In this document: one piece after another, positions 1 to 42,976 of the stretch
How the letters are laid out: every line of letters begins with the position of its first letter
Position numbering within the stretch: position 1 is the stretch's first letter
DNA from: a virus
Virus record (IMG/VR): IMGVR_UViG_3300045988_151420
Span: 1 to 42,976 of that record
Reading direction: 5' to 3' (one strand)
Length of the DNA stretch: 42,976 nt
Position numbers and translations under genes: made by a program
Notes under the pieces: model-generated
The model's input: the letters and a program-made list of their open reading frames with translations, nothing else
Databases searched by the model: none
What the model was told of the DNA's origin: nothing

Positions 1-30
1 TATCTACAACCCAGGGCCATGCCGTGTAGT
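1..30. repeat. Terminal overlap identical to 42947-42976. The window is one circularised 42,946-bp genome unit plus 30 duplicated bases.
   Basis: Direct read: tatctacaacccagggccatgccgtgtagt is at both ends. A minus-strand reading frame is continuous across the junction. Confidence 0.95.
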
Positions 31-7458: not shown

Positions 7459-8184
7459 TCATTCAATTGGCCGTGTGCGCCATTCTGCGAGCTCCTCTTG
7501 GTGCGTGTCTATCCACGATGAGACGAGTTCACGGTGACGTTTGCGACCTTTTTCAGTTTTGTGTCTTGCTGCGAGCGTGTATGCTTTCGCAGGAACTTCG
7601 TGGGAGGTTGGGTCCCATGCGGGGACTGCGACGCATTTGCAATTGTCGTGTGCCCCGAATGACGCCGTCCCCTGTGACCTGTAGTAGCATTCGTTCATTG
7701 TGAGCATGACGCAGAAATTGCATGCTTGTGGGTTGCGTGTTCGTCTTTCCCAGCCCATTGCTTCCGAGTCGGCCCATGTCATGTCTGCGATTTGCGAGCG
7801 GGCACCGTCGCTGACGTATCGAATGAGCGCCCCGGTCAAATAGGATAAGGCGATGTCGGGGTTTCCGGCGTATAGTGCGCCCGCGCTGAATCTTACACTG
7901 TCGTCGATTTCGCCCTGTGGGGTGAGTGATGTTTGTACTGTGGGGGCGTCGCCTGGGATGTCTTGGTCTAGGCGCATGTCGCGGTACCATTCGTCGGCGA
8001 TTGCAGCGGCCGCACTGCCGTATTGGTCTACGAGGGCGGGCATGATTTCGAGCAGAAGATCGCGCGCTTGCTCGGGTCTTTGCCGTGCGGCGTGCGCCCA
8101 GAGCGTGTGTAGATCGTTTTGGGCGAGTGTGACGAGTGAGTCTACGGCTCGCCCGTATGCCCCGATTTCTGCGGTTGACAGCAT
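7459..8184 (-). CDS. MuF-like minor capsid / head morphogenesis protein.
   Basis: 241-aa ORF after the portal gene, carrying a C..C...H.NCKC motif (NFCVML...AHDNCKCV). Confidence 0.6.
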   Translation of the reverse strand: MLSTAEIGAYGRAVDSLVTLAQNDLHTLWAHAARQRPEQARDLLLEIMPALVDQYGSAAAAIADEWYRDMRLDQDIPGDAPTVQTSLTPQGEIDDSVRFSAGALYAGNPDIALSYLTGALIRYVSDGARSQIADMTWADSEAMGWERRTRNPQACNFCVMLTMNECYYRSQGTASFGAHDNCKCVAVPAWDPTSHEVPAKAYTLAARHKTEKGRKRHRELVSSWIDTHQEELAEWRTRPIE

Positions 8185-8191
8185 AATAGGA

Positions 8192-9808
8192 TCAGCCTAT
8201 TGGTGTTTTGGTGACGCCGGGCAGCTTAATGTTGCGCTTAACCCTGTTCCTTGTATTGGGCGCGTTATTAAGGTTCAGGTTATTGTCATTACCGTTGCCG
8301 CCATTGTTATTGACGGCGTTATCGTCACCATTGTTGTTGGCCGCGTCACCATTATCGGCGTTCTCGCCGTTCTCGCCGTTCTCACCCACGGTGTTCTCAT
8401 TGTTCGTGGCGGCGAGAGCACGATCAAGCAAAGACACCGCATTCTTCTTGCGGTTCTCAGCATTAATGTCTGCGAGATCATCCTCGGTGAGCCCGGCACG
8501 CCGCATGAGAGTCTGCGACTCCTGCAATGACGGGAACGCGGACACCATTTTGACCGCGAAATCGGCGGCAGACGACGGCGAGGAATAGCGGGCGGGGGTC
8601 CACTTCACCGAGGTCTTCCACGACTCCTGCGGCGGCTCGTCAAGCTTGTCCCGGACCATAATAATGTTCTGCAGCGTACGCCGCAACGGGGCCGTGAAAA
8701 TACGCCACTGATACTCAGCTTCGTCCGCGAGCGCCGCCTCAGCCGCCTGCATCGCCTCGGCCGAGGCGGGGTTCTCCGCGAATACTCCAATGGCGGACTG
8801 AGGAATGTTTGTGGCCGCGCACAAATTCTGCGCCAGCTGACGGTACATTTCCAGGTGAGGGCTCATGGTCATTTGTGAGAATTGCCCAATCGACGGAATG
8901 TCGCCGTTCTCGTTCGGCTCAAGCACCTGTACTCGGGCCATGATTGCGGACCACCTGTCCTGGCCGGCAAAATCTGCTCTTTCTGCGCCGAGCACGTACC
9001 GTTGCGGTGAGGAGAAGAATTCGGCGGAGGTTTCTGCGCGGACCATTGTCCTCACTGCCGCGTCCGTGAGGTACCTTACTTCGCGGGTGATTCGTGAATG
9101 CCCCAGAGGACGGTTCAGTTGCGGGTCGTAGCAGAGTGCTTCGACGAAAATGCGGTTGGGTGTGTCTCCTAGTTTTTCGGCTTTCCATCCGCTGCCGTTT
9201 TCTTTGGCGTCGATTCGCCAAATGGCGGTGGGGGTGTGCATGATGGCGCCGGCCGGCTGCCCGTATTTGTCGGTCTGATCAATTGTGAGGGCTGCCTCGA
9301 TTATGCGACGCCTAGTGTCCCATAGTGCTGCGGACCATTCCGCGTCACGGGCTTGCACGACGACGGGCGGTTCGCCGATGGTTTCGTCACCGCGTGTCAC
9401 TGTGATTAGCGAGAAAGAGTGCTTGTAGGCGGACGTTATCGCCTGTGCGAGATCGAGGTCGTAGTTGTTTGCGGAGAGTATTTCGTTTGCTTCGAAAGCG
9501 TCGGGAGCGCCGTTAAGGGAGTAGCCTTCGAACACGTGCCGGCGGGCGAGCATGGTGACGACTTTCTGAGGCCACCCAAGCGCGGCTTTGGTGCGCGTCA
9601 TTTGCGGTGGAATACTGATACCGAGGTCCTGGAAAGCGCGGTGGCCGTCATAGTAGACGGAGAGCAGCTTGTTTTTGTTCGAGTGCTGCTGCCATTTCTG
9701 CCACAGTTGCAGGAATGTTACCTTGTCTTCGTTGGGGAGTCCTGAAATGCTGGTCGGTGGCGGCGTGGCGTTAACGAGTCGTCCGTCGTCAGGATAAATT
9801 TCAGTCAT
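8192..9808 (-). CDS. Portal protein.
   Basis: 538-aa ORF overlapping the large terminase stop by 4 nt. The C-terminal tail is rich in Asn/Gly/Asp. Confidence 0.85.
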   Translation of the reverse strand: MTEIYPDDGRLVNATPPPTSISGLPNEDKVTFLQLWQKWQQHSNKNKLLSVYYDGHRAFQDLGISIPPQMTRTKAALGWPQKVVTMLARRHVFEGYSLNGAPDAFEANEILSANNYDLDLAQAITSAYKHSFSLITVTRGDETIGEPPVVVQARDAEWSAALWDTRRRIIEAALTIDQTDKYGQPAGAIMHTPTAIWRIDAKENGSGWKAEKLGDTPNRIFVEALCYDPQLNRPLGHSRITREVRYLTDAAVRTMVRAETSAEFFSSPQRYVLGAERADFAGQDRWSAIMARVQVLEPNENGDIPSIGQFSQMTMSPHLEMYRQLAQNLCAATNIPQSAIGVFAENPASAEAMQAAEAALADEAEYQWRIFTAPLRRTLQNIIMVRDKLDEPPQESWKTSVKWTPARYSSPSSAADFAVKMVSAFPSLQESQTLMRRAGLTEDDLADINAENRKKNAVSLLDRALAATNNENTVGENGENGENADNGDAANNNGDDNAVNNNGGNGNDNNLNLNNAPNTRNRVKRNIKLPGVTKTPIG

Positions 9809-11298
9809 AGGAACAGTACTCCGCCGCCACGATCATTTCTACTATTGGCGTTTTCGATTTTATCATAAGGCTTGTAACGGGGGCGTCTTTTTGTTGTGCG
9901 TGCGGCCCACATTGCGAGCGTGCACGCTTCTAGGCCGGCTACTGTGGCGCCGGGCGGGGCTTGTAGCGCCCATCCTCCGGACGTTCCGATTGGGCGCGGC
10001 GTCGCAGAAGCGGCCTCAGTCCGCAATTCCATGTCGTCCAGGTGCGTGATTGTGTTTTCGCGTAGTGAGGCGTCTAGCATGCTGTAAGCGTCTATGATTT
10101 GCGTGATCGTGGGCGTGATGATGACTTGCGGGCGTACTCCGATCGAACGGAGTCTTTCGATTGTGTCTCCGGCACCGTATTTTCCGTCTACGATGATTTG
10201 CGCCCACCTATCTTTTGTGTCCGCAATGTAGTCGATGATCCATTGTGTGCCCTCGCTCATGCGGCGTACGCCTTGGTGTGTGCAGAGTTCAACATGGGTT
10301 GGCGTGTTTGCCTTGTGTCCCGCTCTGGCTAGGGCGCAGGTTGATCCGTCGGGTGCGAATCGGATTGCGGCGCACCATCGCATACCACTGGGAGTGTTTT
10401 CTGGCCGTATTGTGGCGGTGTTCCAGGCGACGGGGTCGATTGCGAGCCTGTCGTTGGCGCGGTCCCATATTCCGAGGCCTTCACGTCGGAATGATTCTTC
10501 GCCGAGCTGCCGGCGCATTCTTAGAATGGCGGATTCGGGTGTGCGGCGCGGGTATGATGGGTTTGCTTTTTCCCATTGTTTCCTGTCGTCGCTGTTGGCG
10601 TTATAGTCGGCGGCCAACTCCAAATAGAGGCCGTCTTTTATTTCGCCTTGTAGTGCGAGGTTGCGGAATTCGCTGAACGCTTCTGATGGGTCTTTTGGTT
10701 TTGGTGGTGTCCCGATTTTGATGATGAGCGGATCAGGGGCGGTGTTTGTGGCGGGGATCATGTCGTCTAGTGCGGCTGCACCTAGAATCTGGGCTTCGTC
10801 GAAGAGGATCATGTCTACGCCGTGGAATCCGCGTCCGAATCCGCCTTCGCGGGCTCCGAAGAGGATTCGTGATCCATTGTTGAAGAGGATGGCTTGTTGC
10901 CCGTTTGCTTGTCGTATTTTGTTTACGTAGGGGGCGATTTCGGGGATTTGTGCCATTCCTTTCATGTCGTTGAATGTTTCGTCTGCGGTGCGTGTTCTGT
11001 GTGCGGTCCAGAGGACGAAGTAGTTGGGGTGGATGGTGGCGAGTGCGAATGTGAGGCCGCCGATTGTGTATGTTTTGCCGACCTGACGAGGAATGGATGC
11101 TTGGATTCCGTCGATGCTGGCTGCGTAGTGGCCGTCGTTTCTTTTTGCGAGGATTGCTTTGAGCCAGTCTTGTTGCCATATGTCGAGAGGGTATTGCATT
11201 TCTTGGAGGCGGCGTTGGACGGGCGGCCAGGCGGTGTGTGTGATGTTTTCGGGGAGGGTGAGGTGGGCGGCGATTTCGGATAGGTGTTTTTCGCTCAT
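9805..11298 (-). CDS. terL: Terminase large subunit.
   Basis: 497 aa with a Walker A-like IPRQVGKT and a Walker B-like MILFDEAQ; it lies upstream of the portal gene. Confidence 0.9.
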   Translation of the reverse strand: MSEKHLSEIAAHLTLPENITHTAWPPVQRRLQEMQYPLDIWQQDWLKAILAKRNDGHYAASIDGIQASIPRQVGKTYTIGGLTFALATIHPNYFVLWTAHRTRTADETFNDMKGMAQIPEIAPYVNKIRQANGQQAILFNNGSRILFGAREGGFGRGFHGVDMILFDEAQILGAAALDDMIPATNTAPDPLIIKIGTPPKPKDPSEAFSEFRNLALQGEIKDGLYLELAADYNANSDDRKQWEKANPSYPRRTPESAILRMRRQLGEESFRREGLGIWDRANDRLAIDPVAWNTATIRPENTPSGMRWCAAIRFAPDGSTCALARAGHKANTPTHVELCTHQGVRRMSEGTQWIIDYIADTKDRWAQIIVDGKYGAGDTIERLRSIGVRPQVIITPTITQIIDAYSMLDASLRENTITHLDDMELRTEAASATPRPIGTSGGWALQAPPGATVAGLEACTLAMWAARTTKRRPRYKPYDKIENANSRNDRGGGVLFL

Positions 11299-11299
11299 T

Positions 11300-11581
11300 T
11301 TAGATGCCGTCCCAGGTTTGTGTTTCGTTTGGAATGTTGGCGGTGTGTGTGGTGGTGTTTTCGTTTTGTGTGGTGGCGAGTTGGTCTGTGATTTGTATGA
11401 GTTGTGCGGTGAGTTTTGTGAGTGCGGTGTCGCCTGTTCTGGGGTCGTCTATGACGGTGGCGATTTTGTGTGCGAGTGCTTGGCGGATGAGGGTTGGGTT
11501 GCCGGTGTTTGTGGCGTCTGTGATGGGTGCGGGGGAGTTGGGTTCGTATACGGTGATTGTGGTGTTTGTGTGGGTTGTCAT
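11300..11581 (-). CDS. Hypothetical protein; candidate small terminase by position only.
   Basis: 93-aa ORF ending 2 nt before terL. It has a helical central part and Thr/Asn-rich ends. Confidence 0.5.
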   Translation of the reverse strand: MTTHTNTTITVYEPNSPAPITDATNTGNPTLIRQALAHKIATVIDDPRTGDTALTKLTAQLIQITDQLATTQNENTTTHTANIPNETQTWDGI

Positions 11582-11588
11582 GTCTTCT

Positions 11589-11594
11589 ATTATA
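11589..11594 (-). promoter_or_regulatory. Perfect TATAAT -10 hexamer 7 nt upstream of the ATG at 11581 (leaderless-type arrangement).
   Basis: Minus strand reads ccacaTATAATagaagacATG. No Shine-Dalgarno sequence is present. Confidence 0.4.
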
Positions 11595-11624
11595 TGTGGT
11601 GGCGTGTGTCACGTCCGGCAAGAG

Positions 11625-11750
11625 TTTTCCACAGGGTTATCCACAAGTCTAGGGTTTTCCACAGGGTTTTCCACAGGTTGGAGAGTTTTCCACATGATGG
11701 CGCTCACATTGTGACGTGGGTTACTGGAGTTATCCACAGGGTTTTCCACA
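11625..11750 (+). promoter_or_regulatory. Cluster of seven DnaA-box-like 9-mers, TT(A/T)TCCACA, all in the same orientation.
   Basis: TTTTCCACA at 11625, 11655, 11667, 11686 and 11742. TTATCCACA at 11637 and 11730. Three pairs are spaced 12 bp apart. Confidence 0.7.
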
Positions 11751-11885
11751 AGCGGGGAGGGATGGGCAGACCTTCGGGGTGTTCGCGGCCGGATGGGGGA
11801 GGGGGAGTGGCCCCCATCACACATTTGCTGTGGTGTGTGTCTTGTTTTGTTGTGTTCCCTGTCTTGTTTTGTGACGTGGGTCCTA

Positions 11886-11921
11886 CTTTAAGGGATCCCT
11901 TACTCCTTTAAGGGATCCCTT
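11886..11921. promoter_or_regulatory. Two direct copies of CTTTAAGGGATCCCTT, 20 bp apart, each with a palindromic AAGGGATCCCTT core.
   Basis: Copies at 11886-11901 and 11906-11921. The first extends to the 14-bp palindrome TAAGGGATCCCTTA. Confidence 0.6.
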
Positions 11922-11949
11922 GCGTTCGTCTTGTTTTGTTGCCATGGTT

Positions 11950-12245
11950 TTTTCGAACGCCATTGTTGTTTCATGCCTTTGAATGTTTTTGCATGTTTTT
12001 GTAACATTTCTTTTGTTTTTATGTATTTTTGTGCGTTTGTGCGTTGTGTTGCCTTTGCGGCATGCGTTGGCACCGTGCATGGCGCATGGTATTGGTATGC
12101 ATGTCATGCATCACATCGTCATCGTCGTGTTCATCATCATGTTGATCATGTTCATCATGATGATGATTGATCGTCATGATGTTCATCGTTCATTGTTCGT
12201 TGATCATTCATTGAACACTGATTATCGTTGATCATGTTGATCGTG
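11950..12245. other. AT/T-rich tract with five TTGATC(A/G)T repeats and a 12-bp TCATCATGATGA palindrome.
   Basis: Counted G+C: 10 of 50 in 11981-12030 and 22 of 60 in 12121-12180. Repeats at 12142, 12167, 12200, 12228 and 12237. Palindrome at 12152-12163. Confidence 0.6.
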
Positions 12246-12324
12246 ATTGTTTGTTGGTTGTGTGAACGTGAACGGTGTGAGGTGAGGTGAGTGGGTGGTG
12301 TCCGTCTCTCTTCAGTGTGTGGTG

Positions 12325-13333
12325 TGTGGAATGGCGGTGGGGTGTGCTGCTAGTCCACCTCAGTCCGTGATGCGGCCAGTGCTCTGCCCATCCTGGTGCA
12401 GTACTCGTCAGTGCTGCGGTCGTGTCGTGTGCTATTCGTTGCCAGGCGTTGTGGTGTGTGGGTGGTGAGTGTGTCTCTGTGCTGTTCGTGCAGTGGGGTA
12501 TCCTCTGTCCGCTTCCCCCTCGTCGTGGTGGTGGGTGGGGGCATTGTGGATGGTGGGGTGGCATGACGAGGTGGGGTGGCATTGCGATGGAAGGGCGGTG
12601 GTGCAGGTGCGGGTCCTCCGTCTAGTGTTGGTGTCCCCCTTGTTTAGTATCGGCGTCCCCCTTGTTGTTTGTGTGGTGGCCGTGTTGAAGGGCGGGGCGT
12701 GTGGTGCGTGGGGGTCCCCGCGTTCGGATTGGGTCCGTCCTCTTCGCATTGTTCCTGCCCTTCTTCTGTTTTGTGTTGCCATGTCTGTTGCAGGGGGCGG
12801 AGGAAGTGTGGTGGTGTGCGGCGGTGTGTTGTCTACTATCGCACAGTGTTGTGCGTGTGGTGTGTGTTACGAATGGCGATGGTGTGTGGGTGTGGTGGGA
12901 CTGGTCCCGCTATTCTCTTCTGTCTTTGTGTTTGCTGTCACAGTGTTGTTGGTTTAGTGGTGTGTTTTTGTGTCAGGGTTGTGTCATTGTGGAATGGCGG
13001 TGATGGTTGTGTTGGGTAGAAGAGCGGTGGTGTCTACTGTCTACGCACCGTTTGTGTTGCGGTGTGCGTTGTAGTGGTGTGCGTTGTGTTACGTCATGTT
13101 GTGTTGTGTTGTGGAATGGCGGTGGGGTGTTGTGTTGTCTTTCTTGTCCGCTTCTCTCTTTTTCTCTTTCTCTTTGTGTTGGTGTTCGGGGTAGTGCGCG
13201 CGCAGCTTTGCGAGCACGCGCGTTATCCCCGAACACCATTGTGTTCTCTTGTTGTTCTGTCTTCTCTTCTCTTCTCTTCTAGCTCCGCTCTTTCATCACC
13301 CGCTCTTCTTCTGTTATTGAATGGCGGTGGTGT
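12325..13333 (+). repeat. Dispersed array of about 8 copies of (T)GGAA(T/G)GGCGGTGG, all in the same orientation.
   Basis: Copies near 12325, 12587, 12685, 12869, 12988, 13018, 13109 and 13316. Confidence 0.65.
13181..13237. repeat. Long hairpin, copy A of a three-member family.
   Basis: 11-bp outer stem ggtgttcgggg/ccccgaacacc around the core tagtgcgcgcgcagctttgcgagcacgc. Confidence 0.65.
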
Positions 13334-13336
13334 GAT

Positions 13337-13681
13337 TTACCATGTATCACTGTGTTGTGTTGGCATGACAGCTACGGGTAGCCTGTCTCTTTCCCCTTCG
13401 TTTTTCCGGTAGTGGCGTGCTCTTCCTTTGCCTCCTCGTCCGTTGCCTCGTCTGCTGTTGCATTTGGCGCATAATACTCGCCCGTTGTCTGGGTGGTTGG
13501 TTCCGCCTAACGAGGCGGGGATTATGTGGTCTGCCTCAGCGCTGTTGGGTTTGCGTTCGCCGTTGTTTGTGTATTGGAGTTTGACTCCGCATGCTGGGCA
13601 GTGTGTGATGCCGAGCTGTTGTGCTCTGGCTAGTACTTGTTTTCTGAATTGTTTGTGTTCTCGGATGCTTGTTCTGCTCAT
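13337..13681 (-). CDS. HNH endonuclease.
   Basis: 114 aa with HCPACG...EADHIIPASLGGTNHPDNGRVLCAKCNSRRG; GAAGGA lies before the ATG. Confidence 0.9.
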   Translation of the reverse strand: MSRTSIREHKQFRKQVLARAQQLGITHCPACGVKLQYTNNGERKPNSAEADHIIPASLGGTNHPDNGRVLCAKCNSRRGNGRGGKGRARHYRKNEGERDRLPVAVMPTQHSDTW

Positions 13682-13725
13682 TGCTATTCCTTCTCTTTAC
13701 TCTTTTCTCTTCTCTTTCGTGTTGG

Positions 13726-13781
13726 TGTTAGGTGGTGGCGCGTCGCAGCGTCAGCGAGACGAGCGCCTCCACCGTCTAACA
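13726..13781. repeat. Long hairpin, copy C (diverged core gcgcagcgtcagcgag).
   Basis: Stems tgtta/taaca, ggtgg/ccacc and ggcgc/gcgcc. It shares the upstream GTGTTGGTGTT and pyrimidine-tract context with copy A. Confidence 0.55.
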
Positions 13782-13849
13782 CTACTCTCTACTCTCTGCT
13801 CTCTGCTCTCTGCCCCCCGCCTTTCTTCTCTTGTTTTGTTTTGTGTGGT

Positions 13850-13909
13850 GGCGTGTGTTGTGTAGTGCGCGCGCAGCTTTGCGAGCACGCACGTAACACA
13901 ACGCACGCC
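13850..13909. repeat. Long hairpin, copy B.
   Basis: The 28-nt core at 13863-13890 is identical to 13192-13219. A different 13-bp outer stem (13850-13862 / 13897-13909) still pairs. Confidence 0.65.
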
Positions 13910-14539
13910 CTGATGTTTTGGTTTGTCTACTTAATGCAGTGTGTGTTTCTTCTGCCACACATCAGTTCATTGCGTCCACCACACACTGTTCGTTATTAAC
14001 GGCAACAGTATTCAACATTGAACACTACCGCCCTTAATTACATCACAACACATATTTCCTAATTAAACACCGTCTAGGAGTGTTAGACAGTGTCTAATTC
14101 TAGTACTCTTTTAAGAGTGTAGGTCGGGCCCAACACAGTGGCGAGCCCGTCGAAAACACCAGGCGACGCTGACGCTCGCTTGCGTCGCTAGGGCTCCTCA
14201 GCGGCTGCGCCGCCGATCGTCTTCGACGATTCGTCTACTCGAGTGTAGCATACGGGACCAAAGTCACCACAACAAACACTGCCAACAAACAATCACAAAC
14301 GAGGACTAAACGTTGTAATCGCGCGAAAACATGTCGCCGCAACCCTTGCTGAAACCGCAGAAAGTGTGACGACACACACCAACATTGTAGTAACACAAAC
14401 GGGTGTTTTCATCCTAGAACGCCGGTTGCTAGCAAACAACCCACATGCGTAGAAAGTAAACGGAAGGTGAACAAGGTGAACGGAAGGTTAGCGGAAACTG
14501 TGAAAGATCAGCACCATGATGGCCGACACCACACGCACC

Positions 14540-14568
14540 CATCACACACCGCCCTTCCACCACCTGAG
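14540..14568 (+). repeat. Left copy of the direct repeat CATCAC-N3-CCGCCCTTCCACC-N1-CCTGAG.
   Basis: Aligned by eye with 15456-15485. Confidence 0.6.
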
Positions 14569-14575
14569 ACGCACT

Positions 14576-14608
14576 GAGGCCCCACCCCCTCATCGGAAGT
14601 GGGGCCTC
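14576..14608. terminator. Stem-loop downstream of the 110-aa leftward gene.
   Basis: 10-bp stem gaggccccac/gtggggcctc. Confidence 0.55.
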
Positions 14609-14638
14609 GTCATCCTCGGGCCGGTCGGGTCAGTAGGG

Positions 14639-14971
14639 TCAGGAATTCCGGTACAGCAGAGCGCGCGAGCCGGTATCCGCCTCCTCGTTGACGACGGGGA
14701 CGAGGGCGACCTCGAGGTTGGCGTGAGCGAGATAGGCGTCCCGGGCGAGGCGGGCGATTCGAGACCAAAGGTCCGTGTCGGCCATCGCGTACTCGTAGGC
14801 GTCATCCCATCCATTAGGCACCTCAAGCGGCTCGATCGAGTCGATGCCGCAGTCGTCGCCCGTCGTGTAGAGGGTCCAAGGGTCACCAGTGCGGGGAGCG
14901 TGGACCCGGTAGATGACGCCGAACTCGATGGTCTCGAGGACCGGGTCCTCGCTGCGGTGAATGGTGCTCAT
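14639..14971 (-). CDS. Hypothetical acidic protein.
   Basis: 110-aa ORF with AGGAGGAAAAGAGAAG immediately before the ATG. Local GC is high (39 of 60 in 14641-14700). Confidence 0.75.
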   Translation of the reverse strand: MSTIHRSEDPVLETIEFGVIYRVHAPRTGDPWTLYTTGDDCGIDSIEPLEVPNGWDDAYEYAMADTDLWSRIARLARDAYLAHANLEVALVPVVNEEADTGSRALLYRNS

Positions 14972-15089
14972 CTTCTCTTTTCCTCCTGGTCGGTTGTGTT
15001 GTTCCGTTGGTATAAGAATGCCTTTGGGCCTTGTATTAGCACAAGACCCGGGGGGGGCTCTGTCACATTGTAAGGGTGGGATGGGCGGC

Positions 15090-15392
15090 TCAGCCGCCCA
15101 GTGCGGTCAGCTCGGCCATGAAGGGCCTATCGGCCTCAACGCGGTCGGTCAGCCGCCGCAGCGCGACGTCGATCCGGCTCGCCACCCCCTCTCCATCGAG
15201 GTCTCGGATGTTGTCCGTGGTATCGGCGATGAAAGCGCGAACTAGCTTGAACGCTTCGTAGGGGTAGAGGTCGAACATGAAGAATCGCAGCGCCGCACGC
15301 AGGTACTTGTCGGCGGCCTCCTCGTTGTCTTCGGCGTAGCGGAGCGTGAGGGCTAGCATGACTTTAGGCTCGGGGGCGGTTGAGGCATCCAT
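15090..15392 (-). CDS. Hypothetical protein.
   Basis: 100-aa ORF with protein-like composition; the ribosome binding site is weak. Confidence 0.6.
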   Translation of the reverse strand: MDASTAPEPKVMLALTLRYAEDNEEAADKYLRAALRFFMFDLYPYEAFKLVRAFIADTTDNIRDLDGEGVASRIDVALRRLTDRVEADRPFMAELTALGG

Positions 15393-29760: not shown

Positions 29761-31263
29761 TCAGGAATTCCGCTCCGGAGCCGGAGCGGGAGACTCCGGG
29801 GTCGGAGACTCTGCGACACCATCATGCGCCTGCAAAGACGACGGCGTCGACACAGCCTTACGAATCTCATTCACAGCACCATAAATCGCACCCGCCTCAC
29901 GAACATTCTCCTGACCCGGAGTCACAGAATGCAGAATCTGATCCACAGACGCGTGAATAGACTTAACCTCCTCATAGGTGGCCTTGGCGTACCAATTCAT
30001 GTCGCCAGCAAAGTGATCCCCCGCCTTTCCACTACGGAAAAGATCACGAATCTCCCTGAGCAGATCAACGCCCTCGCTCATATCCCAAAATTCCTCTCCG
30101 GCGCCCCCCGAAGGACGACCATAATCATACCAAGACTTGCAACGACTACTGAAAAGAATCCCATAAGACTCATACGCATCATACGGATTCCCCGAATTAT
30201 AACGCGACCCGACACGCTTCAACGCTTCATAAGAATCGCCCTCAGCGTTAATAAGATCACGAAGAATACGGCAACCAACCTCAGCCGACTTCTCCGGCAT
30301 CCACCATTCACGATCCGGGTCATCAAAGAAATAACCCGGATACGTAATCTGCAACGGACCGACACCGTTTGAGTTTTCGCCGTCTCGAATCGCCGCAAGA
30401 AACTCACGGAAATTCTCTTCGGTCACTTCCTCGCCGTGCGGGCCGGCGCCCCCGGCGTCGTGCCCGTAAATGTTTGCGCCACGCTCGCCGGTCTCCATCC
30501 ACAGGCACGCCAGAGCAGCCCACCACGGACAATTCTCCGCATCGGCAGCCCTGAGAACGGCCTCCTGAATTGAAGAAAGGCGGTACGAACCGGCTGACTC
30601 ATGTCCGTTATCGGAATCGGTACGCTTTCCAAAACGAACGCATGTAGACCACGAGGCCGCGACAGTCATCGGGTGACTACTATACCGGACTACGTGTGTT
30701 TCATAGCCGGTCTGGTCGCCCATCTGACCTTCCGCGATTTCACCATTCTCATTAATCCACGCTTCAGCGAGGAGTGGGTCGCTTGCGTTGAATGAGCCGT
30801 CGTCTTCGCGCACGCACATTGCGACATGTCCGCCGTCTCCGGTAGTTTTCAGAACGAGGTCGCCGACATGGAATCCTCCCGACGGTGTAGACCCGTACCA
30901 AGTGTCCCCAATATCCATGAAACCGCGATTCGCGGCCAAAGAATTCAGAGTTTCGGTCCACGTTTCGCCGGTCCGCGGGAACATGATCGGATCATCCCAG
31001 CCGGTTCCCCAGACGTTATGGAATGCAATATTGTAGGCGCCCGCTACGCCGCTACTGCAATCCATGTCGCCGGGGCCGGTTTTCCAGCCTGCGTCATTGC
31101 TGTTCCAATAGCAAGTCCACCGGTTGTCCTGGGCGTATCCGGTGCCCCCGTAGTCGCCTGTGGTGCACCAATATTTCATTTCCGACGCAGCATATTCTGT
31201 GACGGAATCTGCCAATTTTGCACCGCCTTTCGTAAAGGTTTTCGGTGGCTTTAATTTTATCAT
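29761..31263 (-). CDS. Endolysin: N-terminal Cys/His peptidase plus a lytic transglycosylase-like domain.
   Basis: DCSSGVAGAY ... GGHVAMCV, then WMETGERGANIYGHD ... VGPLQITYPGY. I prefer the start at 31263 (MIKLKPP) over 31317. Confidence 0.75.
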   Translation of the reverse strand: MIKLKPPKTFTKGGAKLADSVTEYAASEMKYWCTTGDYGGTGYAQDNRWTCYWNSNDAGWKTGPGDMDCSSGVAGAYNIAFHNVWGTGWDDPIMFPRTGETWTETLNSLAANRGFMDIGDTWYGSTPSGGFHVGDLVLKTTGDGGHVAMCVREDDGSFNASDPLLAEAWINENGEIAEGQMGDQTGYETHVVRYSSHPMTVAASWSTCVRFGKRTDSDNGHESAGSYRLSSIQEAVLRAADAENCPWWAALACLWMETGERGANIYGHDAGGAGPHGEEVTEENFREFLAAIRDGENSNGVGPLQITYPGYFFDDPDREWWMPEKSAEVGCRILRDLINAEGDSYEALKRVGSRYNSGNPYDAYESYGILFSSRCKSWYDYGRPSGGAGEEFWDMSEGVDLLREIRDLFRSGKAGDHFAGDMNWYAKATYEEVKSIHASVDQILHSVTPGQENVREAGAIYGAVNEIRKAVSTPSSLQAHDGVAESPTPESPAPAPERNS

Positions 31264-31308
31264 GAGCACCTGGGGACGTCCGTAGCATATATAGGTACGT
31301 GCGCGCGC

Positions 31309-31337
31309 GTATACCACACACGCCCACCGTCTGTCAA
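31309..31337 (-). promoter_or_regulatory. Candidate leftward promoter: TTGACA, 17-18-nt spacer, GTATAC/TATACG.
   Basis: The minus strand carries GTGTTGAC at 31340-31333. Confidence 0.35.
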
Positions 31338-41111: not shown

Positions 41112-42976
41112 TCATCGGTTCATTCGGTCATAGTCTACTATGGCCGACGTTGCCTCTACTTGCATACGACCCACGAGATCATTGTCCACGTCCCTAATTT
41201 CAAGCACGTCAGGGCCGAGAGCACGATTCTCCAGAAGGCTGATCAGCTTATCCATTTTCTCCCACTGAGCTGACGTGAAAACGGGCTCCGGACGACCGGT
41301 CTTATTCTCGATCGTTGAGAGGCCGGGCTGCAGGAATCCACCATTATCGTAGCGCAGATTCCCTGCGGACGGCCCACCGTAAATCGGAACCTCACGCACA
41401 GGAATACCGAAGGTCGGCGCCTCAACCATCATCCCGTTACCGGAGGCGATAGCAACGTGGTGAGCAGGGTAACCCCAGAACAGAAGCGTACCGGGAACCA
41501 TGGGGTTGCCGGGCGATGACATTGCCTGATATCCCGCCGCCGTGAGACGCGGCACATGAACACCCATGGCATTGAGCGCCCAATAGACGAGACCTGAACA
41601 GTCAAGCCCGCCCCCCGGGGAGACGCCGCCCCAAACATACGGTGTACCGATAGCCCGTCGCGCAGTATTCACGAGGTCGCCCGCGGCGGCACCAATAGCA
41701 CCGATTCCGCCACCGAATCCACTGACCACGGGCATGTGATCTTTAATCCAGTCGCCGAGCGCGTCAATAGTTTTATCAACGCCTGCCTTTCCGGCGTCGA
41801 AGAATGGTTTTGCCCCGTCGCCTCCCCACGAATCGAGAAGTTTGTGTACCGGAGCCTTGATAACAGTCTCGACGGCTCCGATCGGGTCGGAGAAGATCGA
41901 GGATACCGCATCAGCGGCGCCAGTTATCCAATTAAGAGCAGCTGACGCACCCTTCTCTACCGTCGATTTGACAGGATCCCAAATACCGCCCGGAGCGAAT
42001 GCGGCATACCCCGCATCGCCGCCAGGAATACGGTCCCCGTGCGCGGCCGCCCTGTTCATGGCATTCACCATTGCTGGCCCGCCAATGGCTTTCACCCATT
42101 CGGGGCGCATGATTGCTTCTCCGCCGGAAAGTGCGAGCCTGCCGCCACCGTCGGGTGATACGAAATGGTAAATGTCGCGGCCGGGAGAGTATCCGGGCAG
42201 CACACCACCGGACGCGTAACCGCCAATCGTGGGAGCCTCGGGAAGACGAAGATCGAGAGAGAGTTTCTCCATCATTCCGTTAACGAGTTTCCGCAATCCG
42301 TTATTGTAGACTGTGCCGATAACGAAGTTAACGGGCTTGGCGGCGGCTTCCTTGATTTTGTCCCACGCCGTCCTGACACCGTCTTTCATAGTATTGGCAG
42401 CGGCCACGACCCTGTCCCAGGCGCTTGTAATTGCGGGAACAAGCGTGTTGGTAATCCAATCTTTAACGATTTGGATTTCGCCTTTCAGAATGTTCCACGC
42501 GGAGACGACCATGTTTTTCAGCCAGCTGGTCCACGAAACAACAGTGTTCCAGGCAGCACTGATCGTGGTGGCCGCACCTTGAATTACGGCGACTCCCATA
42601 GTGACCGCGGCAATGATGGACGCGAATACAAACGCGATGATCCCGCCCAGAATTTTCGCACCCGTAGAGATTATTTCCCAGGCCACACTAATAACAGGTG
42701 CAGCGTAGGTTTGAATCCAATTCACTACCGGCTGCATAACGGCCCAAATACCATTCCATGTCGCCGATAGTGAACCCCACATAATAGACGCCGTGTCTTT
42801 AATGGCGTTGAATGCGCCGACCACCCACGGCCACGCGATATTGTAGATCCAATCAACGACAGGCTGAATAGTGGCCCAAATACCGTTCCACGCCGCCGAT
42901 ATGGTGCCCCAAAGACTAGACGCCGCGTCTTTGATTGTGTTGAATGTATCTACAACCCAGGGCCATGCCGTGTAGT
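41112..42976 (-). CDS. Tape measure protein, C-terminal part with an NlpC/P60 peptidase domain.
   Basis: The frame is open from the window end to the TGA at 41114-41112. GTPYVWGG...GLDCSGLVYWAL...HHVAIASGNGMMVEAP maps to about 41370-41665. Confidence 0.9.
   Translation of the reverse strand, partial: YTAWPWVVDTFNTIKDAASSLWGTISAAWNGIWATIQPVVDWIYNIAWPWVVGAFNAIKDTASIMWGSLSATWNGIWAVMQPVVNWIQTYAAPVISVAWEIISTGAKILGGIIAFVFASIIAAVTMGVAVIQGAATTISAAWNTVVSWTSWLKNMVVSAWNILKGEIQIVKDWITNTLVPAITSAWDRVVAAANTMKDGVRTAWDKIKEAAAKPVNFVIGTVYNNGLRKLVNGMMEKLSLDLRLPEAPTIGGYASGGVLPGYSPGRDIYHFVSPDGGGRLALSGGEAIMRPEWVKAIGGPAMVNAMNRAAAHGDRIPGGDAGYAAFAPGGIWDPVKSTVEKGASAALNWITGAADAVSSIFSDPIGAVETVIKAPVHKLLDSWGGDGAKPFFDAGKAGVDKTIDALGDWIKDHMPVVSGFGGGIGAIGAAAGDLVNTARRAIGTPYVWGGVSPGGGLDCSGLVYWALNAMGVHVPRLTAAGYQAMSSPGNPMVPGTLLFWGYPAHHVAIASGNGMMVEAPTFGIPVREVPIYGGPSAGNLRYDNGGFLQPGLSTIENKTGRPEPVFTSAQWEKMDKLISLLENRALGPDVLEIRDVDNDLVGRMQVEATSAIVDYDRMNR
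42947..42976. repeat. Terminal overlap identical to 1-30.
   Basis: Direct comparison of the two ends. Confidence 0.95.

What the first reader, a model, noticed from the sequence alone, without database searches (positions are those of the whole stretch)
11582..14638. A 3-kb almost gene-free region with extreme strand asymmetry that flips polarity near 13.95 kb
Between the candidate terS start and the next confident gene there are 3,057 bp, and only the 345-nt HNH gene looks coding.

From about 11.3 to 13.9 kb the plus strand is G+T rich and nearly free of C. I count G 28 / C 3 in 12241-12300 and G 25 / C 5 in 13081-13140. To the right of about 13.95 kb the plus strand becomes A+C rich (C 17 / G 7 in 14261-14320). 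The DNA is therefore C/A-rich when read outward in both directions from a point near 13.93-14.0 kb.

Such a switch could mark an origin or terminus, the physical genome ends, or divergent long untranslated transcripts. A C-rich, G-poor leftward RNA about 2 kb long would be an ideal Rho loading substrate ahead of the packaging genes. That would imply termination/antitermination control.
Basis: partly seen in the sequence, partly recalled or inferred. Interest (0 to 1): 0.7.

Follow-up and report, generated by a model that had tools for sequence, protein, structure and literature searches.

The report
Skewed non-coding DNA around phage cos
The flagged 3 kb is the end-joining (cos) and control region of an uncultured 43-kb phage: it really has no protein gene except HNH, it holds the physical genome ends, several conserved DNA/RNA signals and a new structured RNA, and its extreme strand bias belongs to the DNA strand and reaches into the neighbouring genes rather than marking an origin or a special transcript.

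Summary
Among 18 relatives, HNH is the only ORF in 11582-14638 that evolves like a gene. The AT skew flips at about 13.95-14.0 kb.

- The window is a circular assembly of a 42,946-bp cos phage.
- At least 8 independent contigs start exactly at 11768, one with an Illumina adapter fused there. Two contigs stop at 11780.
- This implies an 11-nt cohesive end at 11769-11779, which is 2.2 kb from the flip.

The region is a mosaic of conserved elements:
- 7 DnaA-box-like repeats and a TATAAT 7 nt before the terS ATG.
- A 1.2-1.6-kb HNH-to-cos spacer with 3-8 one-way copies of CCACCGCCATTC.
- Three invariant hairpins and palindromic operators.
- A 94-nt hairpin behind a promoter-like -10, supported by covariation and absent from Rfam.

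The skew is not specific to untranslated RNA.
- Third codon positions are 97% A/C in terS, 88% in HNH, and 90 falling to 69% along TerL.
- Plus-strand replication genes are G/T-rich at third positions, so the bias follows the DNA strand.
- Rare variants erode the bias (53:3), so present mutation does not maintain it.

What the spacer does, and why the bias exists, remain open.

The parts
11300..11581 (-). terS (small terminase). At third codon positions it is 97% A/C, with G 2% and T 1%.
   Evidence: phrog_1459 hit. Substitution pattern 117/47/137 by codon position. Composition.
11589..11594 (-). TATAAT, a -10-like hexamer exactly 7 nt before the terS ATG. It suggests a leaderless terS/late mRNA.
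   Evidence: TATAAT at a fixed 7-nt distance in 58 of the 61 sequences listed (1 of the other 3 is cut off at the ATG). The 7 nt in between vary in sequence. The promoter function itself is inferred.
11625..11750 (+). Seven same-direction copies of TTWTCCACA (the DnaA-box consensus), each inside a 13-nt unit GGTTWTCCACAGG. They lie between cos and the terS promoter.
   Evidence: 7 of the 8 genome matches fall here, against 0.62 expected genome-wide. Family D1. Relatives carry 5-9 copies in all but one.
11769..11779 (.). cos cohesive end. It is 11 nt, GACCTTCGGGG on the plus strand, and probably a 3' overhang. The genome's left end starts at 11768 and its right end stops at 11780.
   Evidence: Eight contigs start exactly at 11768. 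L045 has Illumina adapter sequence fused to that base. L090 and L105 stop at 11780. L038 and L056 show fold-back chimeras. This is the best conserved block, at 0.97 identity.
11889..11922 (.). Two copies of the palindrome AAGGGATCCCTT, 110-140 bp inside the right end.
   Evidence: Inverted repeat I23. The cos-proximal copy is conserved. Function unknown.
11930..12250 (.). Conserved block with low G+C (about 42%). It holds a plus-strand promoter-like site (TTGAAT 11979-11984, 17-nt spacer, TAACAT 12002-12007), ATGCAT/GCATGC palindromes at 12050-12115, and five TTGATCRT repeats at 12140-12245.
   Evidence: Identity 0.85-0.91. Alignment of 45 distinct sequences. Repeat families D2 and D4. Functions are inferred.
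11780..13336 (-). The HNH-to-cos non-coding spacer, 1,557 bp here. The late-sense strand is A 38%, C 33%, G 19%, T 10%.
   Evidence: No conserved ORF. In 29 relatives the length is 1,199-1,616 nt and the composition is nearly constant. Blocks at 12600-12650, 12750-12950 and 13000-13150 are hypervariable.
12329..13330 (-). One-way array of the motif CCACCGCCATTC(CACA), which reads GAATGGCGGTGG on the plus strand. There are 6 copies with at most 1 mismatch and 7 with at most 2. The first copy lies 4-8 nt after the HNH stop codon.
   Evidence: only 2 other copies with at most 1 mismatch in the rest of the genome. Relatives have 3-8 copies, essentially always in this direction.
13181..13237 (.). 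Hairpin 1: an 11-bp perfect outer stem plus a G+C-rich inner stem. Stems are invariant and the loop varies. It lies about 100 nt downstream of HNH.
   Evidence: Repeat D11. 43 distinct sequences aligned. On the plus strand it is followed by a U-rich tract. On the minus strand it is not.
13337..13681 (-). HNH endonuclease, the only conserved protein gene in the interval.
   Evidence: phrog_338 at E = 4e-16. Intact in 17/18 relatives, with 57% of changes at codon position 3.
13725..13782 (.). Hairpin 3, essentially invariant, just upstream of the HNH start.
   Evidence: Alignment, with conserved flanks reading GTGTTAGACGGTGG...CCACCACCTAACAC.
13860..13899 (.). Hairpin 2, a second copy of the hairpin-1 core, upstream of HNH.
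   Evidence: D11, 88% identical to copy 1. Identity 0.95. Alignment.
13930..14035 (.). The flip point: a hypervariable, A+T-rich segment between hairpin 2 and the operator block.
   Evidence: AT skew changes sign here. Relatives do not align across it and carry indels.
14063..14134 (.). Operator-like palindromes. TTAGACAnTGTCTAA occurs in 2 copies here (one degenerate), followed by TACTCTTAAAAGAGTA and GTTGGGCCCAAC.
   Evidence: Relatives carry 2-3 TAGACAnTGTCTA copies. The GTTGGGCCCAAC arms change together, T/A to C/G, in 3 sequences.
14142..14233 (-). Conserved 94-nt hairpin that folds only on the minus (late-sense) strand. Its apical loop UGAGGAGCCCUAGCGACGCA is invariant. It is probably the 5' leader of a leftward transcript.
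   Evidence: Consensus fold. 99.7% of cells paired, 6 compensatory pairs, 0 of 500 shuffles as good, shifted controls 32-49%. Three G:U pairs, two invariant and one at 29/34. No Rfam match.
14247..14252 (-). -10-like TATGCT (invariant TATGnT). A TTGTTG lies 17 nt upstream and the hairpin begins about 13 nt downstream.
   Evidence: Alignment A1 of 34 distinct sequences. Promoter function is inferred from conservation.
14384..14412 (-). A second leftward promoter-like site: ATGAAA, 17-nt spacer, TACAAT.
   Evidence: Consensus scan (the number of hits is no higher than in shuffles). The TTACTACAAT block is conserved.
14546..14557 (+). A single inverted copy of the array motif. The late-sense strand reads GGAAGGGCGGTG, a 13-nt perfect complement of the copy at 12588-12600.
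   Evidence: Inverted repeat I25. Conserved in relatives. Significance unknown.

Best explanation
What it is. The interval is the cos-flanking terminal and control region of a 42.9-kb cos-packaging siphovirus-type phage. The phage belongs to an uncultured, human-associated actinophage-like clade. The interval is not one object but a string of conserved non-coding elements.

Shown:
- Virion DNA ends at 11768 and 11780, leaving an 11-nt cohesive end.
- In the conventional map, terS-TerL-portal run rightward from the left end. HNH and a 1.2-1.6-kb non-coding spacer sit at the extreme right end.
- Apart from HNH, nothing in the interval evolves like a protein gene.
- The strand bias (late-sense strand A+C-rich, plus strand G+T-rich) is a property of the DNA strand. 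It peaks around cos, covers the spacer, and is most extreme at synonymous sites of HNH, terS and the 5' half of TerL. It continues more weakly through plus-strand replication genes to about 23.6 kb.
- Rare variants run against the bias wherever it occurs. Present-day mutation input therefore does not maintain it.

Inferred:
1. After the ends anneal, leftward transcription starts at two promoter-like sites (-10 at 14384-14389 and 14247-14252). These sit next to palindromic operators.
2. That transcript passes a conserved 94-nt leader hairpin and two further hairpins, then expresses HNH.
3. Beyond the HNH stop codon the RNA is untranslated, C-rich, G-poor and almost structure-free. Under the known rules for Rho, such RNA should be terminated within the spacer.
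4. The spacer would then insulate the packaging/late operon. That operon has its own TATAAT-driven, probably leaderless start at terS, flanked by 5-9 DnaA-box-like protein-binding repeats.
5. The 13.95-kb flip is simply the border between the biased block and the A+T-rich, hypervariable operator/promoter module.

The reason for the bias itself is unresolved. Selection on the DNA strand, or a past episode that is now decaying, is favoured over ongoing mutation bias and over a purpose specific to RNA.
For: - Circular assembly: the first 30 nt equal the last 30 nt.
- Gene identities: TerL, portal, terS and HNH; replication genes on the plus strand.
- Genome ends: recurrent contig termini, an adapter fusion and fold-back chimeras.
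- Absence of genes: ORF integrity and codon periodicity across 18 relatives.
- Conserved islands.
- Leader hairpin covariation.
- terS TATAAT at a fixed 7-nt distance, and box copy numbers.
- Spacer length, composition and motif direction in 29 relatives.
- Third-position composition along the genome.
- Polymorphism spectra.
- Low foldability and high C/G of the late-sense RNA.
- Known relatives place HNH 50-150 bp from the right end, so the spacer is special to this clade.
Against: - There are no expression data. All promoters are predictions, and the consensus scan finds no more sites than in shuffled sequence.
- The host, and hence its Rho, DnaA box and promoter rules, is unknown.
- A Rho terminator needs about 100-200 nt, not 1.2-1.6 kb. 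The insulator idea also does not explain the one-way motif array.
- The right end is less sharply defined than the left: only 2 contigs stop at 11780. The overhang's length and polarity are therefore inferred.
- Polarising variants by the majority allele is safe for singletons but not for common variants.
- A non-equilibrium (historical) origin of the bias cannot be separated from selection.
Confidence: 0.55

Rival explanations
1. A roughly 2-kb C-rich, G-poor leftward RNA is the leader of the packaging genes. It loads Rho, so late expression depends on antitermination. The promoter-proximal 94-nt hairpin could then be the antitermination element.
For: - The late-sense RNA has C 33% and G 19%, locally about 47% and 5%, and is the least foldable in the genome.
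- It is untranslated.
- A conserved structured RNA lies directly behind a promoter-like -10 upstream. This is the position taken by put-type elements (from my own knowledge of phage HK022).
Against: - terS has its own invariant TATAAT 7 nt before the ATG.
- The bias is stronger at synonymous sites of translated genes than in the spacer (97% and 88% against 71%). It also follows the DNA strand through genes of both orientations. It is therefore not tailored to an untranslated RNA.
- Three invariant G+C-rich hairpins interrupt the path.
- No antiterminator gene was identified.
Confidence: 0.2
2. The spacer is a sacrificial or protective right-end buffer. It carries an oriented array of a Chi-like site for the host's RecBCD or AdnAB-type nuclease. 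That enzyme enters the right end left free after terminase cuts cos.
For: - There are 3-8 copies in 29 relatives, essentially all in one direction and all within 1.6 kb of the right end. Only 2 copies with at most 1 mismatch occur elsewhere.
- The copies lie on the strand whose 3' end is at the right terminus. That is the active geometry described for Chi clusters at the right end of cos phages LLS and MD8 (PMC12315714).
- The DNA between copies is hypervariable and rich in indels, as expected near recombination hotspots.
Against: - On the active strand the motif is C-rich. All known Chi sequences are G-rich on that strand (from my own knowledge).
- No Chi is known for Actinobacteria, and the host is unidentified.
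- This phage carries its own exonuclease and Sak4-type annealing module. The Chi-rich lambdoid phages lack such modules.
- A 14-mer scan found multi-copy occurrences only in this clade.
Confidence: 0.12
3. The bias is a mutational footprint. The plus strand spends long periods single-stranded during replication, as in the mitochondrial strand-displacement model. It accumulates C-to-T and A-to-G changes, and the flip marks an origin, terminus or fork-stall site.
For: - The bias affects synonymous and non-coding sites alike. It follows the DNA strand through genes of both orientations from about 6.9 to 23.6 kb.
- The combination of G+T enrichment on one strand matches deamination of single-stranded DNA (from my own knowledge).
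- The flip lies in an A+T-rich, palindrome-rich segment next to a strand-specific hairpin.
Against: - Singleton variants run against the bias: terS/TerL 53:3, HNH 11:0, orf7459 13:0, primase 54:16, spacer 89:49. Per-site rates are roughly symmetric. At mutational equilibrium the two directions should be equal.
- Cumulative GC skew has no extremum at 13.95 kb.
- Simple rolling-circle, theta and end-resection geometries each predict the wrong strand or the mirror-image gradient (my reasoning in the full report).
- Portal codons at 8.3-8.8 kb interrupt the gradient.
Confidence: 0.15
4. The functional product is a plus-strand, G/U-rich non-coding RNA of about 1.2 kb. It would start at the conserved promoter-like site near the right end, the DNA presumed to enter the cell first. 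It would end at hairpin 1, and its repeated UGGAAUGGCGGUGG units would act as binding sites, as in sponge RNAs.
For: - TTGAAT/TTGCAT, a 17-nt spacer, then TAACAT with an invariant -10, in 45 distinct sequences.
- Hairpins 1 and 2 are followed by U-rich tracts only on the plus strand.
- Motif copy number varies while the sequence between copies is free to change. This resembles multi-site sponge RNAs (from my own knowledge).
Against: - No expression evidence exists.
- The promoter matches only 8 of 12 consensus positions and was not reported by the scan.
- The bias extends into terS and TerL, upstream of this promoter.
- No partner protein or RNA has been identified.
Confidence: 0.12
5. The low-complexity ORFs in the interval are real genes. 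Examples are the Pro/His-rich 12232-12582 and the His/Asp-rich 12019-12186, both on the minus strand.
For: Open reading frames of 55-162 aa exist on both strands.
Against: - They are intact in only 0-5 of 18 relatives and show no excess of third-position changes.
- They have no PHROG match.
- Frequent indels are not multiples of three.
Confidence: 0.03

Closest known systems
HK97-type cos packaging modules of actinophages, ordered HNH endonuclease - cos - terS - TerL (for example Arthrobacter phage MrSmee, Rothia phage Spartoi)
   Same: TerL is 50% identical. An HNH gene is the last gene at the right end and terS/TerL are the first at the left. The short cohesive end is inferred from recurrent contig termini.
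   Different: In MrSmee and Spartoi, HNH ends 50-150 bp from the genome end. Here 1.2-1.6 kb of conserved-composition non-coding DNA is inserted between HNH and cos. The whole module also carries an extreme strand bias that is absent from 41%-identical Leucobacter prophages.
Terminally clustered, one-way Chi sites in cos phages LLS (E. coli) and MD8 (P. aeruginosa)
   Same: A short motif is strongly over-represented. It is essentially all in one direction, concentrated at the right genome end, and on the strand whose 3' end is at that terminus.
   Different: The motif here is unrelated to any known Chi and is C-rich on the 'active' strand. It lies in non-coding DNA rather than scattered through genes. 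The phage also has its own recombination module.
Rho-dependent terminators / rut regions
   Same: The region is C-rich, G-poor, unstructured and untranslated, and it begins right after a stop codon.
   Different: It is ten times longer than needed and contains a repeated specific motif. It also shares its composition with translated neighbours.
Promoter-proximal cis-acting leader RNAs of phages (HK022 put, the lambda pR' 6S/qut region) and RNase III processing hairpins of T7 early mRNA
   Same: A conserved, covariation-supported hairpin lies directly behind a promoter-like -10 and upstream of a unit that reads toward cos. Isolated long hairpins bracket a cistron.
   Different: No sequence or architecture match: a single 94-nt irregular hairpin against the two stem-loops of put. 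There is no Rfam hit and the function is untested.
DnaA-box clusters (oriC, datA, P1 oriR)
   Same: Seven perfect matches to TTWTCCACA fall within 126 bp, against 0.62 expected in the whole genome.
   Different: All copies point the same way inside a longer 13-nt unit. They sit between cos and the terS promoter, with no adjacent unwinding element on the same side of cos. The skew does not change sign there. They could equally be terminase (cosB-like) or late-activator sites.

Membership tests
cos (cohesive-end) packaging site | Virion DNA has fixed physical ends at one sequence position | tested here: met
   Eight independent contigs start at 11768. One has adapter sequence fused to that base. 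Two stop at 11780. Fold-back chimeras occur at the same point.
cos (cohesive-end) packaging site | Complementary single-stranded overhang of defined length and polarity | tested here: inconclusive
   The 11 nt missing from both kinds of contig end fit a 3' overhang trimmed during library preparation. Only 2 right-end contigs define one side, and polarity cannot be read from assemblies.
HNH-assisted (HK97-type) terminase module | HNH endonuclease gene next to cos and terS/TerL | tested here: met
   HNH matches many HNH PHROG families. It is the last gene before cos, though 1.56 kb away rather than under 150 bp as in relatives.
Rho-dependent terminator / rut region | Untranslated, C>G, weakly structured RNA of at least about 80 nt | tested here: met
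   No conserved ORF. C 33% and G 19%, with most 78-nt windows of C/G at least 3 falling in 10.7-13.1 kb. MFE is -7 to -35 against a genome mean of -43 per 150 nt.
Rho-dependent terminator / rut region | Termination depends on Rho in vivo or in vitro | not testable with these tools
   There are no transcript data and the host is unidentified.
Replication origin or terminus at the skew switch (13.95 kb) | Global extremum of cumulative skew at the site | tested here: not met
   Cumulative GC skew has its minimum near 5 kb and its maximum near 29 kb, with only a plateau at 13-15.5 kb. Third-position G+T on the plus strand stays at or above 0.55 on both sides.
oriC-type origin (DnaA boxes plus unwinding element) | Cluster of DnaA-box consensus sites | tested here: met
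   Seven TTWTCCACA in 11625-11750, where chance gives 0.62 per genome.
oriC-type origin (DnaA boxes plus unwinding element) | Adjacent A+T-rich unwinding element and a skew sign change | tested here: not met
   The nearest low-G+C block (11930-12250) is 180 bp away, on the other side of cos. The skew keeps its sign across the cluster.
Terminal Chi-site cluster (LLS/MD8 type) | Over-represented short motif, one direction, concentrated at the right end, on the strand ending 3' there | tested here: met
   The geometry was compared with PMC12315714.
Terminal Chi-site cluster (LLS/MD8 type) | Motif is the host's Chi; phage lacks its own recombination module | tested here: not met
   The host Chi is unknown and was not testable. 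The phage does encode an exonuclease and a Sak4-like annealing protein.
Any described RNA family (Rfam 15) | Covariance-model match | tested here: not met
   No hit at E <= 1 in 11000-15000 and none at gathering score in the whole window. The 94-nt hairpin is nevertheless supported by covariation.
Protein-coding genes in the low-complexity ORFs | Frame preserved in relatives, with excess change at codon position 3 | tested here: not met
   0-5 of 18 intact for all spacer ORFs of at least 50 aa, and no periodicity.

The most novel reading that the evidence does not exclude
The block of about 4 kb centred on cos is kept A+C-only on one strand by selection acting on the DNA, or on its single-stranded form, and not on any RNA. 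The one-way CCACCGCCATTC array at the right terminus is then the recognition site of a host or phage end-processing machine. One candidate is the first Chi-like sequence for an actinobacterial AdnAB/RecBCD nuclease. Another is a packaging-termination signal. An A+C-only strand cannot pair with itself, so the requirement could be a hairpin-free strand during end processing, packaging or strand displacement.
Probability: 0.12. Interest if true: 0.8.

Novelty: new variant of a known kind. Interest (0 to 1): 0.55.

Why it matters
- It gives a usable map for a phage clade that is abundant in human metagenomes but has no cultured member. At least 64 IMG/VR contigs belong to it, several from Human Microbiome Project samples. 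The map includes the genome ends, so the clade can be oriented correctly.
- Synonymous sites that are 97% A/C in terS, with a bias that follows the DNA strand through genes of both orientations and is opposed by current mutation input, are rare. Vertebrate mitochondrial DNA reaches comparable values (from my own knowledge). I found no report of this in a phage in the searches I ran. If selection maintains it, it points to an unrecognised constraint on DNA near cos.
- The 94-nt covariation-supported hairpin is a candidate new phage regulatory RNA.
- The one-way terminal motif array offers a concrete and cheap test for a Chi-like or packaging signal in Actinobacteria, where no Chi sequence is known.

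Tried and rejected
- Close DNA relatives among GenBank phages: a megablast of the region found none.
- Host identification. A TerL scan of one genome per species gave only 41%-identical Leucobacter prophages, which lack the bias. A search with the endolysin-like protein returned only unnamed metagenomic proteins.
- Rfam at a permissive threshold, and tRNA/tmRNA scans: nothing.
- Consensus promoter and terminator scan: no more hits than in shuffled sequence, so promoter calls rest on conservation only.
- G-quadruplex motifs (four runs of G3 or longer) on the G-rich strand: none in the region.
- 14-mer scan of IMG/VR for the array motif: multi-copy occurrences only in this clade, and single hits elsewhere look like chance.
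- Literature searches for a described non-coding right end, DnaA boxes at cos, or skewed cos regions in actinophages: no direct precedent.
- End resection as the source of the bias: rejected, because it predicts opposite polarity on the two sides of cos, whereas the bias keeps its sign.
- Rolling-circle or strand-displacement exposure of the plus strand: rejected in its simple forms, because each predicts the wrong strand or a mirror-image gradient.
- The 38-aa ORF 11704-11820 (intact in 16/18): rejected, because it spans cos, lies in the most conserved block and lacks an excess of third-position changes.
- One control (portal 8192-8900) was probably out of frame and is not used. The full portal was re-run.

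Full report
**Context**

The window's first 30 nt equal its last 30 nt, so it is a circular assembly of a 42,946-bp genome.

Gene content:
- ORFs on the minus strand encode TerL (9805-11298), portal (8192-9808) and a small terminase (11300-11581, phrog_1459).
- HNH is at 13337-13681 on the minus strand.
- Plus-strand ORFs from 15.6 to 28 kb are replication genes: primase, helicases, exonuclease and a Sak4-like annealing protein.

Relatives:
- TerL is about 50% identical to Arthrobacter phage MrSmee, Rothia phage Spartoi and Propionibacterium freudenreichii phages.
- No GenBank phage matches the region at the DNA level.
- IMG/VR holds 62 contigs with 94-99% identical TerL, several from Human Microbiome Project samples. 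A second set of loci was retrieved through HNH.
- The host could not be identified.

**Observation check**

The plus strand is 68% G+T over 11582-13950 and 42% over 13951-14638. Windows with keto skew above 0.3 occur only at 10.5-13.5 kb and 21.3-21.6 kb.

At 200-nt resolution:
- The G>C component ends near 13.1 kb.
- The T>A component lasts to about 13.95 kb and then reverses.
- The bias starts well inside TerL, not at 11.58 kb.

I aligned the interval with 18 relatives and tested every ORF of 30 aa or more on both strands.
- HNH is intact in 17/18, with 57% of substitutions at codon position 3.
- terS shows the expected low rate at position 2.
- Nothing else in 11582-14638 is both preserved and periodic.
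- The two small minus-strand genes to the right (14639-14971, 15090-15392) are intact where present, but about a third of relatives lack them.

The region therefore really is almost gene-free.

**Physical ends**

- Many independent contigs end inside the interval.
- Eight start at exactly the same base, window 11768. In TerL-sense orientation they read TGCCCATCCCTCCC.
- One more carries the tail of an Illumina adapter (…GCTCTTCCGATCT) fused directly to that base.
- Two show the inverted fold-back typical of assemblies at a DNA end.
- Two contigs coming from the HNH side stop at …CATCCGGCCGCGAACA, which is window 11780.
- The 11 nt between them (11769-11779) are absent from both kinds of end. 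That is what blunting does to a 3' overhang.
- This block is the best conserved in the interval, at 0.97 identity.

The bias does not change sign at cos.

In MrSmee and Spartoi the HNH gene ends 50-150 bp from the right end. Here 1,557 bp separate them.

**Anatomy, read in late-sense orientation (window minus strand)**

From right to left in window coordinates:

1. A hairpin after gene 14639, and one inverted copy of the array motif at 14546-14557.
2. A promoter-like site with -10 TACAAT at 14384-14389.
3. A second promoter-like site. Its -10 is invariant as TATGnT (14247-14252) in 34 distinct sequences, and TTGTTG lies 17 nt upstream.
4. A 94-nt irregular hairpin at 14142-14233, beginning about 13 nt downstream of that -10.
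   - The consensus fold has 46 pairs including two small downstream stems.
   - 99.7% of cells are paired and 6 pairs show compensatory changes. Examples are column pair 56:96 with CG in 21 and UA in 12 sequences, and pair 49:103 with UA, GC, UG, GU and joint deletions.
   - No shuffle out of 500 does as well, and shifted registers pair only 32-49%.
   - Three G:U pairs, two invariant and one in 29 of 34 sequences, make the fold specific to this strand. That favours RNA.
   - It matches no Rfam family.
5. Three DNA palindromes, including 2-3 copies of TAGACAnTGTCTA in relatives, which look like operators.
6. The hypervariable A+T-rich segment where the skew flips (13930-14035).
7. Hairpin 2 (13860-13899), a purine-rich variable tract, the invariant hairpin 3 (13725-13782), and then HNH.
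8. Hairpin 1 (13181-13237), about 100 nt after HNH. Its stems are invariant and its loop varies in 43 distinct sequences.

**The spacer (13336 down to 11780)**

- In 29 relatives it is 1,199-1,616 nt long.
- Its composition is nearly constant at about A .37, C .31, G .20, T .10, even though whole blocks are unalignable.
- It carries 3-8 copies of CCACCGCCATTC, essentially always in the same direction. The first copy lies 4-8 nt after the HNH stop codon.
- With at most one mismatch there are 6 copies within 1 kb here and only 2 in the other 42 kb.
- The cos-proximal 470 bp are conserved and lower in G+C. They contain a plus-strand promoter-like TTGAAT-17-TAACAT, ATGCAT/GCATGC palindromes and five TTGATCRT repeats.

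**Left of cos**

- Seven same-direction TTWTCCACA sites, the DnaA-box consensus, occupy 11625-11750. That is 7 of 8 genome matches against 0.62 expected.
- Relatives have 5-9 copies in all but one.
- Directly after them, TATAAT lies exactly 7 nt before the terS ATG in 58 of the 61 sequences listed, one of the other three being cut off at the ATG. The intervening 7 nt vary in sequence but not in length.
- This is the arrangement expected for a leaderless mRNA in Actinobacteria (from my own knowledge). It is a prediction only.

**What the bias is**

The key result is that the bias is not confined to non-coding DNA.

Late-sense A+C at third codon positions:

| Gene | A+C at position 3 |
|---|---|
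| terS | 0.97 (G 0.02, T 0.01) |
| HNH | 0.88 |
| TerL, first to last third | 0.90, 0.80, 0.69 |
| Portal | patchy, 0.2-0.76 |
| Capsid and tail genes | about 0.45, with A3 only 0.02 |

The spacer itself is only 0.71.

Plus-strand replication genes between 16.5 and 23.6 kb have G+T of 0.58-0.75 at third positions. The plus strand is therefore G+T-rich whichever way the genes point. Beyond 23.6 kb the bias disappears.

A purpose tied to one transcript cannot explain this. That includes a rut site, an unstructured leader, or evasion of an RNase.

**Mutation or selection?**

I used singleton variants among relatives as a proxy for new mutations.

| Region | Variants against the bias : with the bias |
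|---|---|
| terS + TerL, position 3 (57 sequences) | 53 : 3 (509 A/C sites, 82 G/T sites) |
| HNH | 11 : 0 |
| orf7459 | 13 : 0 |
| Plus-strand primase | 54 : 16 |
| Spacer, all sites | 89 : 49 |
| Control: capsid (unbiased) | 24 : 18 |
| Control: gene 3543 (unbiased) | 6 : 17 |

- Common variants are balanced in the spacer (111:98) and the primase (75:78).
- Per-site rates in the two directions are similar.
- Today's mutation input therefore erodes the bias. Either selection restores it, or it was created in the clade's ancestor and is now decaying.

I also compared simple single-strand-exposure models with the shape of the bias.
- End resection predicts opposite signs on the two sides of cos.
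- Rolling-circle displacement of the plus strand predicts the mirror-image gradient.
- Displacement of the minus strand gives the right shape but the wrong strand.
- None of these fits. That is reasoning, not a test.

**Mechanism**

The late-sense RNA of 10.6-13.2 kb is the least foldable in the genome. Its 150-nt MFE is -7 to -35 kcal/mol, against a mean of -43. It also holds most of the windows with C/G of at least 3. Once translation stops at the HNH stop codon, such RNA should be an efficient Rho substrate under the established rules.

My working model is therefore as follows.
- The HNH unit is driven from the operator-controlled promoters and carries the leader hairpin.
- It ends by Rho action inside the spacer.
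- The late operon starts independently at terS.

I hold this loosely. The spacer is ten times longer than a terminator needs, and the model does not explain the one-way motif array.

The array has a striking published parallel.
- In cos phages LLS and MD8, Chi sites are clustered at the right end.
- They lie on the strand whose 3' end is at that terminus. This is the end left open to RecBCD after terminase cuts cos (PMC12315714).
- The geometry here is the same.
- Against this, the motif is C-rich on that strand, no actinobacterial Chi is known, and this phage has its own recombination module. The Chi-rich lambdoid phages lack one.

Other readings remain open:
- A plus-strand G/U-rich RNA running from the right-end promoter to hairpin 1.
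- The boxes acting as DnaA, terminase or activator sites.

**Verdict**

- The region is a cos-terminal, regulatory, non-coding mosaic, which is a known kind of thing.
- It has three unusual features: an inserted 1.2-1.6-kb spacer with a one-way motif array, a new covariation-supported leader hairpin, and an extreme strand bias that follows the DNA strand and is opposed by current mutation.
Genome ends are present but misplaced. The C-rich RNA is real as sequence. There is no evidence for an origin or terminus at the flip, or for divergent transcripts. The Rho-gating idea is weakened.

Noticed in passing
window 1-30 and 42947-42976: The first and last 30 nt are identical. The window is a circularly closed assembly of a 42,946-bp genome whose arbitrary start lies inside the tail-gene region.
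   Followed up: yes
window 11300-11581: The terS protein is itself shaped by the bias. It is rich in Thr, Asn, Pro, His and Gln (codons built from A and C), and G is only 6% at second codon positions.
   Followed up: partly
L038 1-103 and L056 1-25: Two IMG/VR contigs begin with an inverted copy of the sequence next to the left genome end. These are fold-back chimeras, an assembly artefact that can serve as a marker of true DNA ends.
   Followed up: partly
L045 1-20 and L065 last about 35 nt: Sequencing-adapter remnants (Illumina PE adapter, Nextera transposase end) are left in public IMG/VR contigs at or near the phage genome ends.
   Followed up: no
window 14639-15392: Two small minus-strand genes of unknown function, with no PHROG or Pfam match, are present in only about two thirds of relatives. 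They form a variable accessory cassette between the control region and the divergent early promoter zone at 15.4-15.6 kb.
   Followed up: partly
window 8300-8800 (portal, 3' part): Third-position A+C drops abruptly to 0.2-0.44 inside the portal gene and rises again to 0.70-0.86 in the next gene (7459-8184). The patchiness suggests mosaic recombination, or different selection within one operon.
   Followed up: no
window 12588-12600 and 14547-14559: A 13-nt perfect complement links one array motif copy to a conserved site 2 kb upstream on the same strand. It could allow long-range pairing in a single late-sense RNA, or mark an inverted protein site on either side of the flip.
   Followed up: no
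window 13770-13786 and 14076-14092: A 17-nt inverted repeat (GTGTTAGACrGTG core, 88% match) brackets the roughly 290-bp segment that contains the flip and hairpin 2. One arm lies in hairpin 3 and the other in the operator. All relatives examined have the segment in the same orientation.
   Followed up: partly
window 29761-31317 (minus strand): This is an endolysin-like (PF25309) gene. Close relatives in public data are called longer (645-669 aa against 518 aa here), so the true start may lie upstream. More distant homologues carry an added GH25 or LysM domain.
   Followed up: no
window 12019-12186 (minus strand): A His/Asp-rich 55-aa ORF (MNIMTINHHHDEHDQHDDEHDDDD...) overlaps the ATGATGA/TCATCA repeat block. 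It is intact in only 1 of 18 relatives, so it is a by-product of the repeats rather than a gene.
   Followed up: yes
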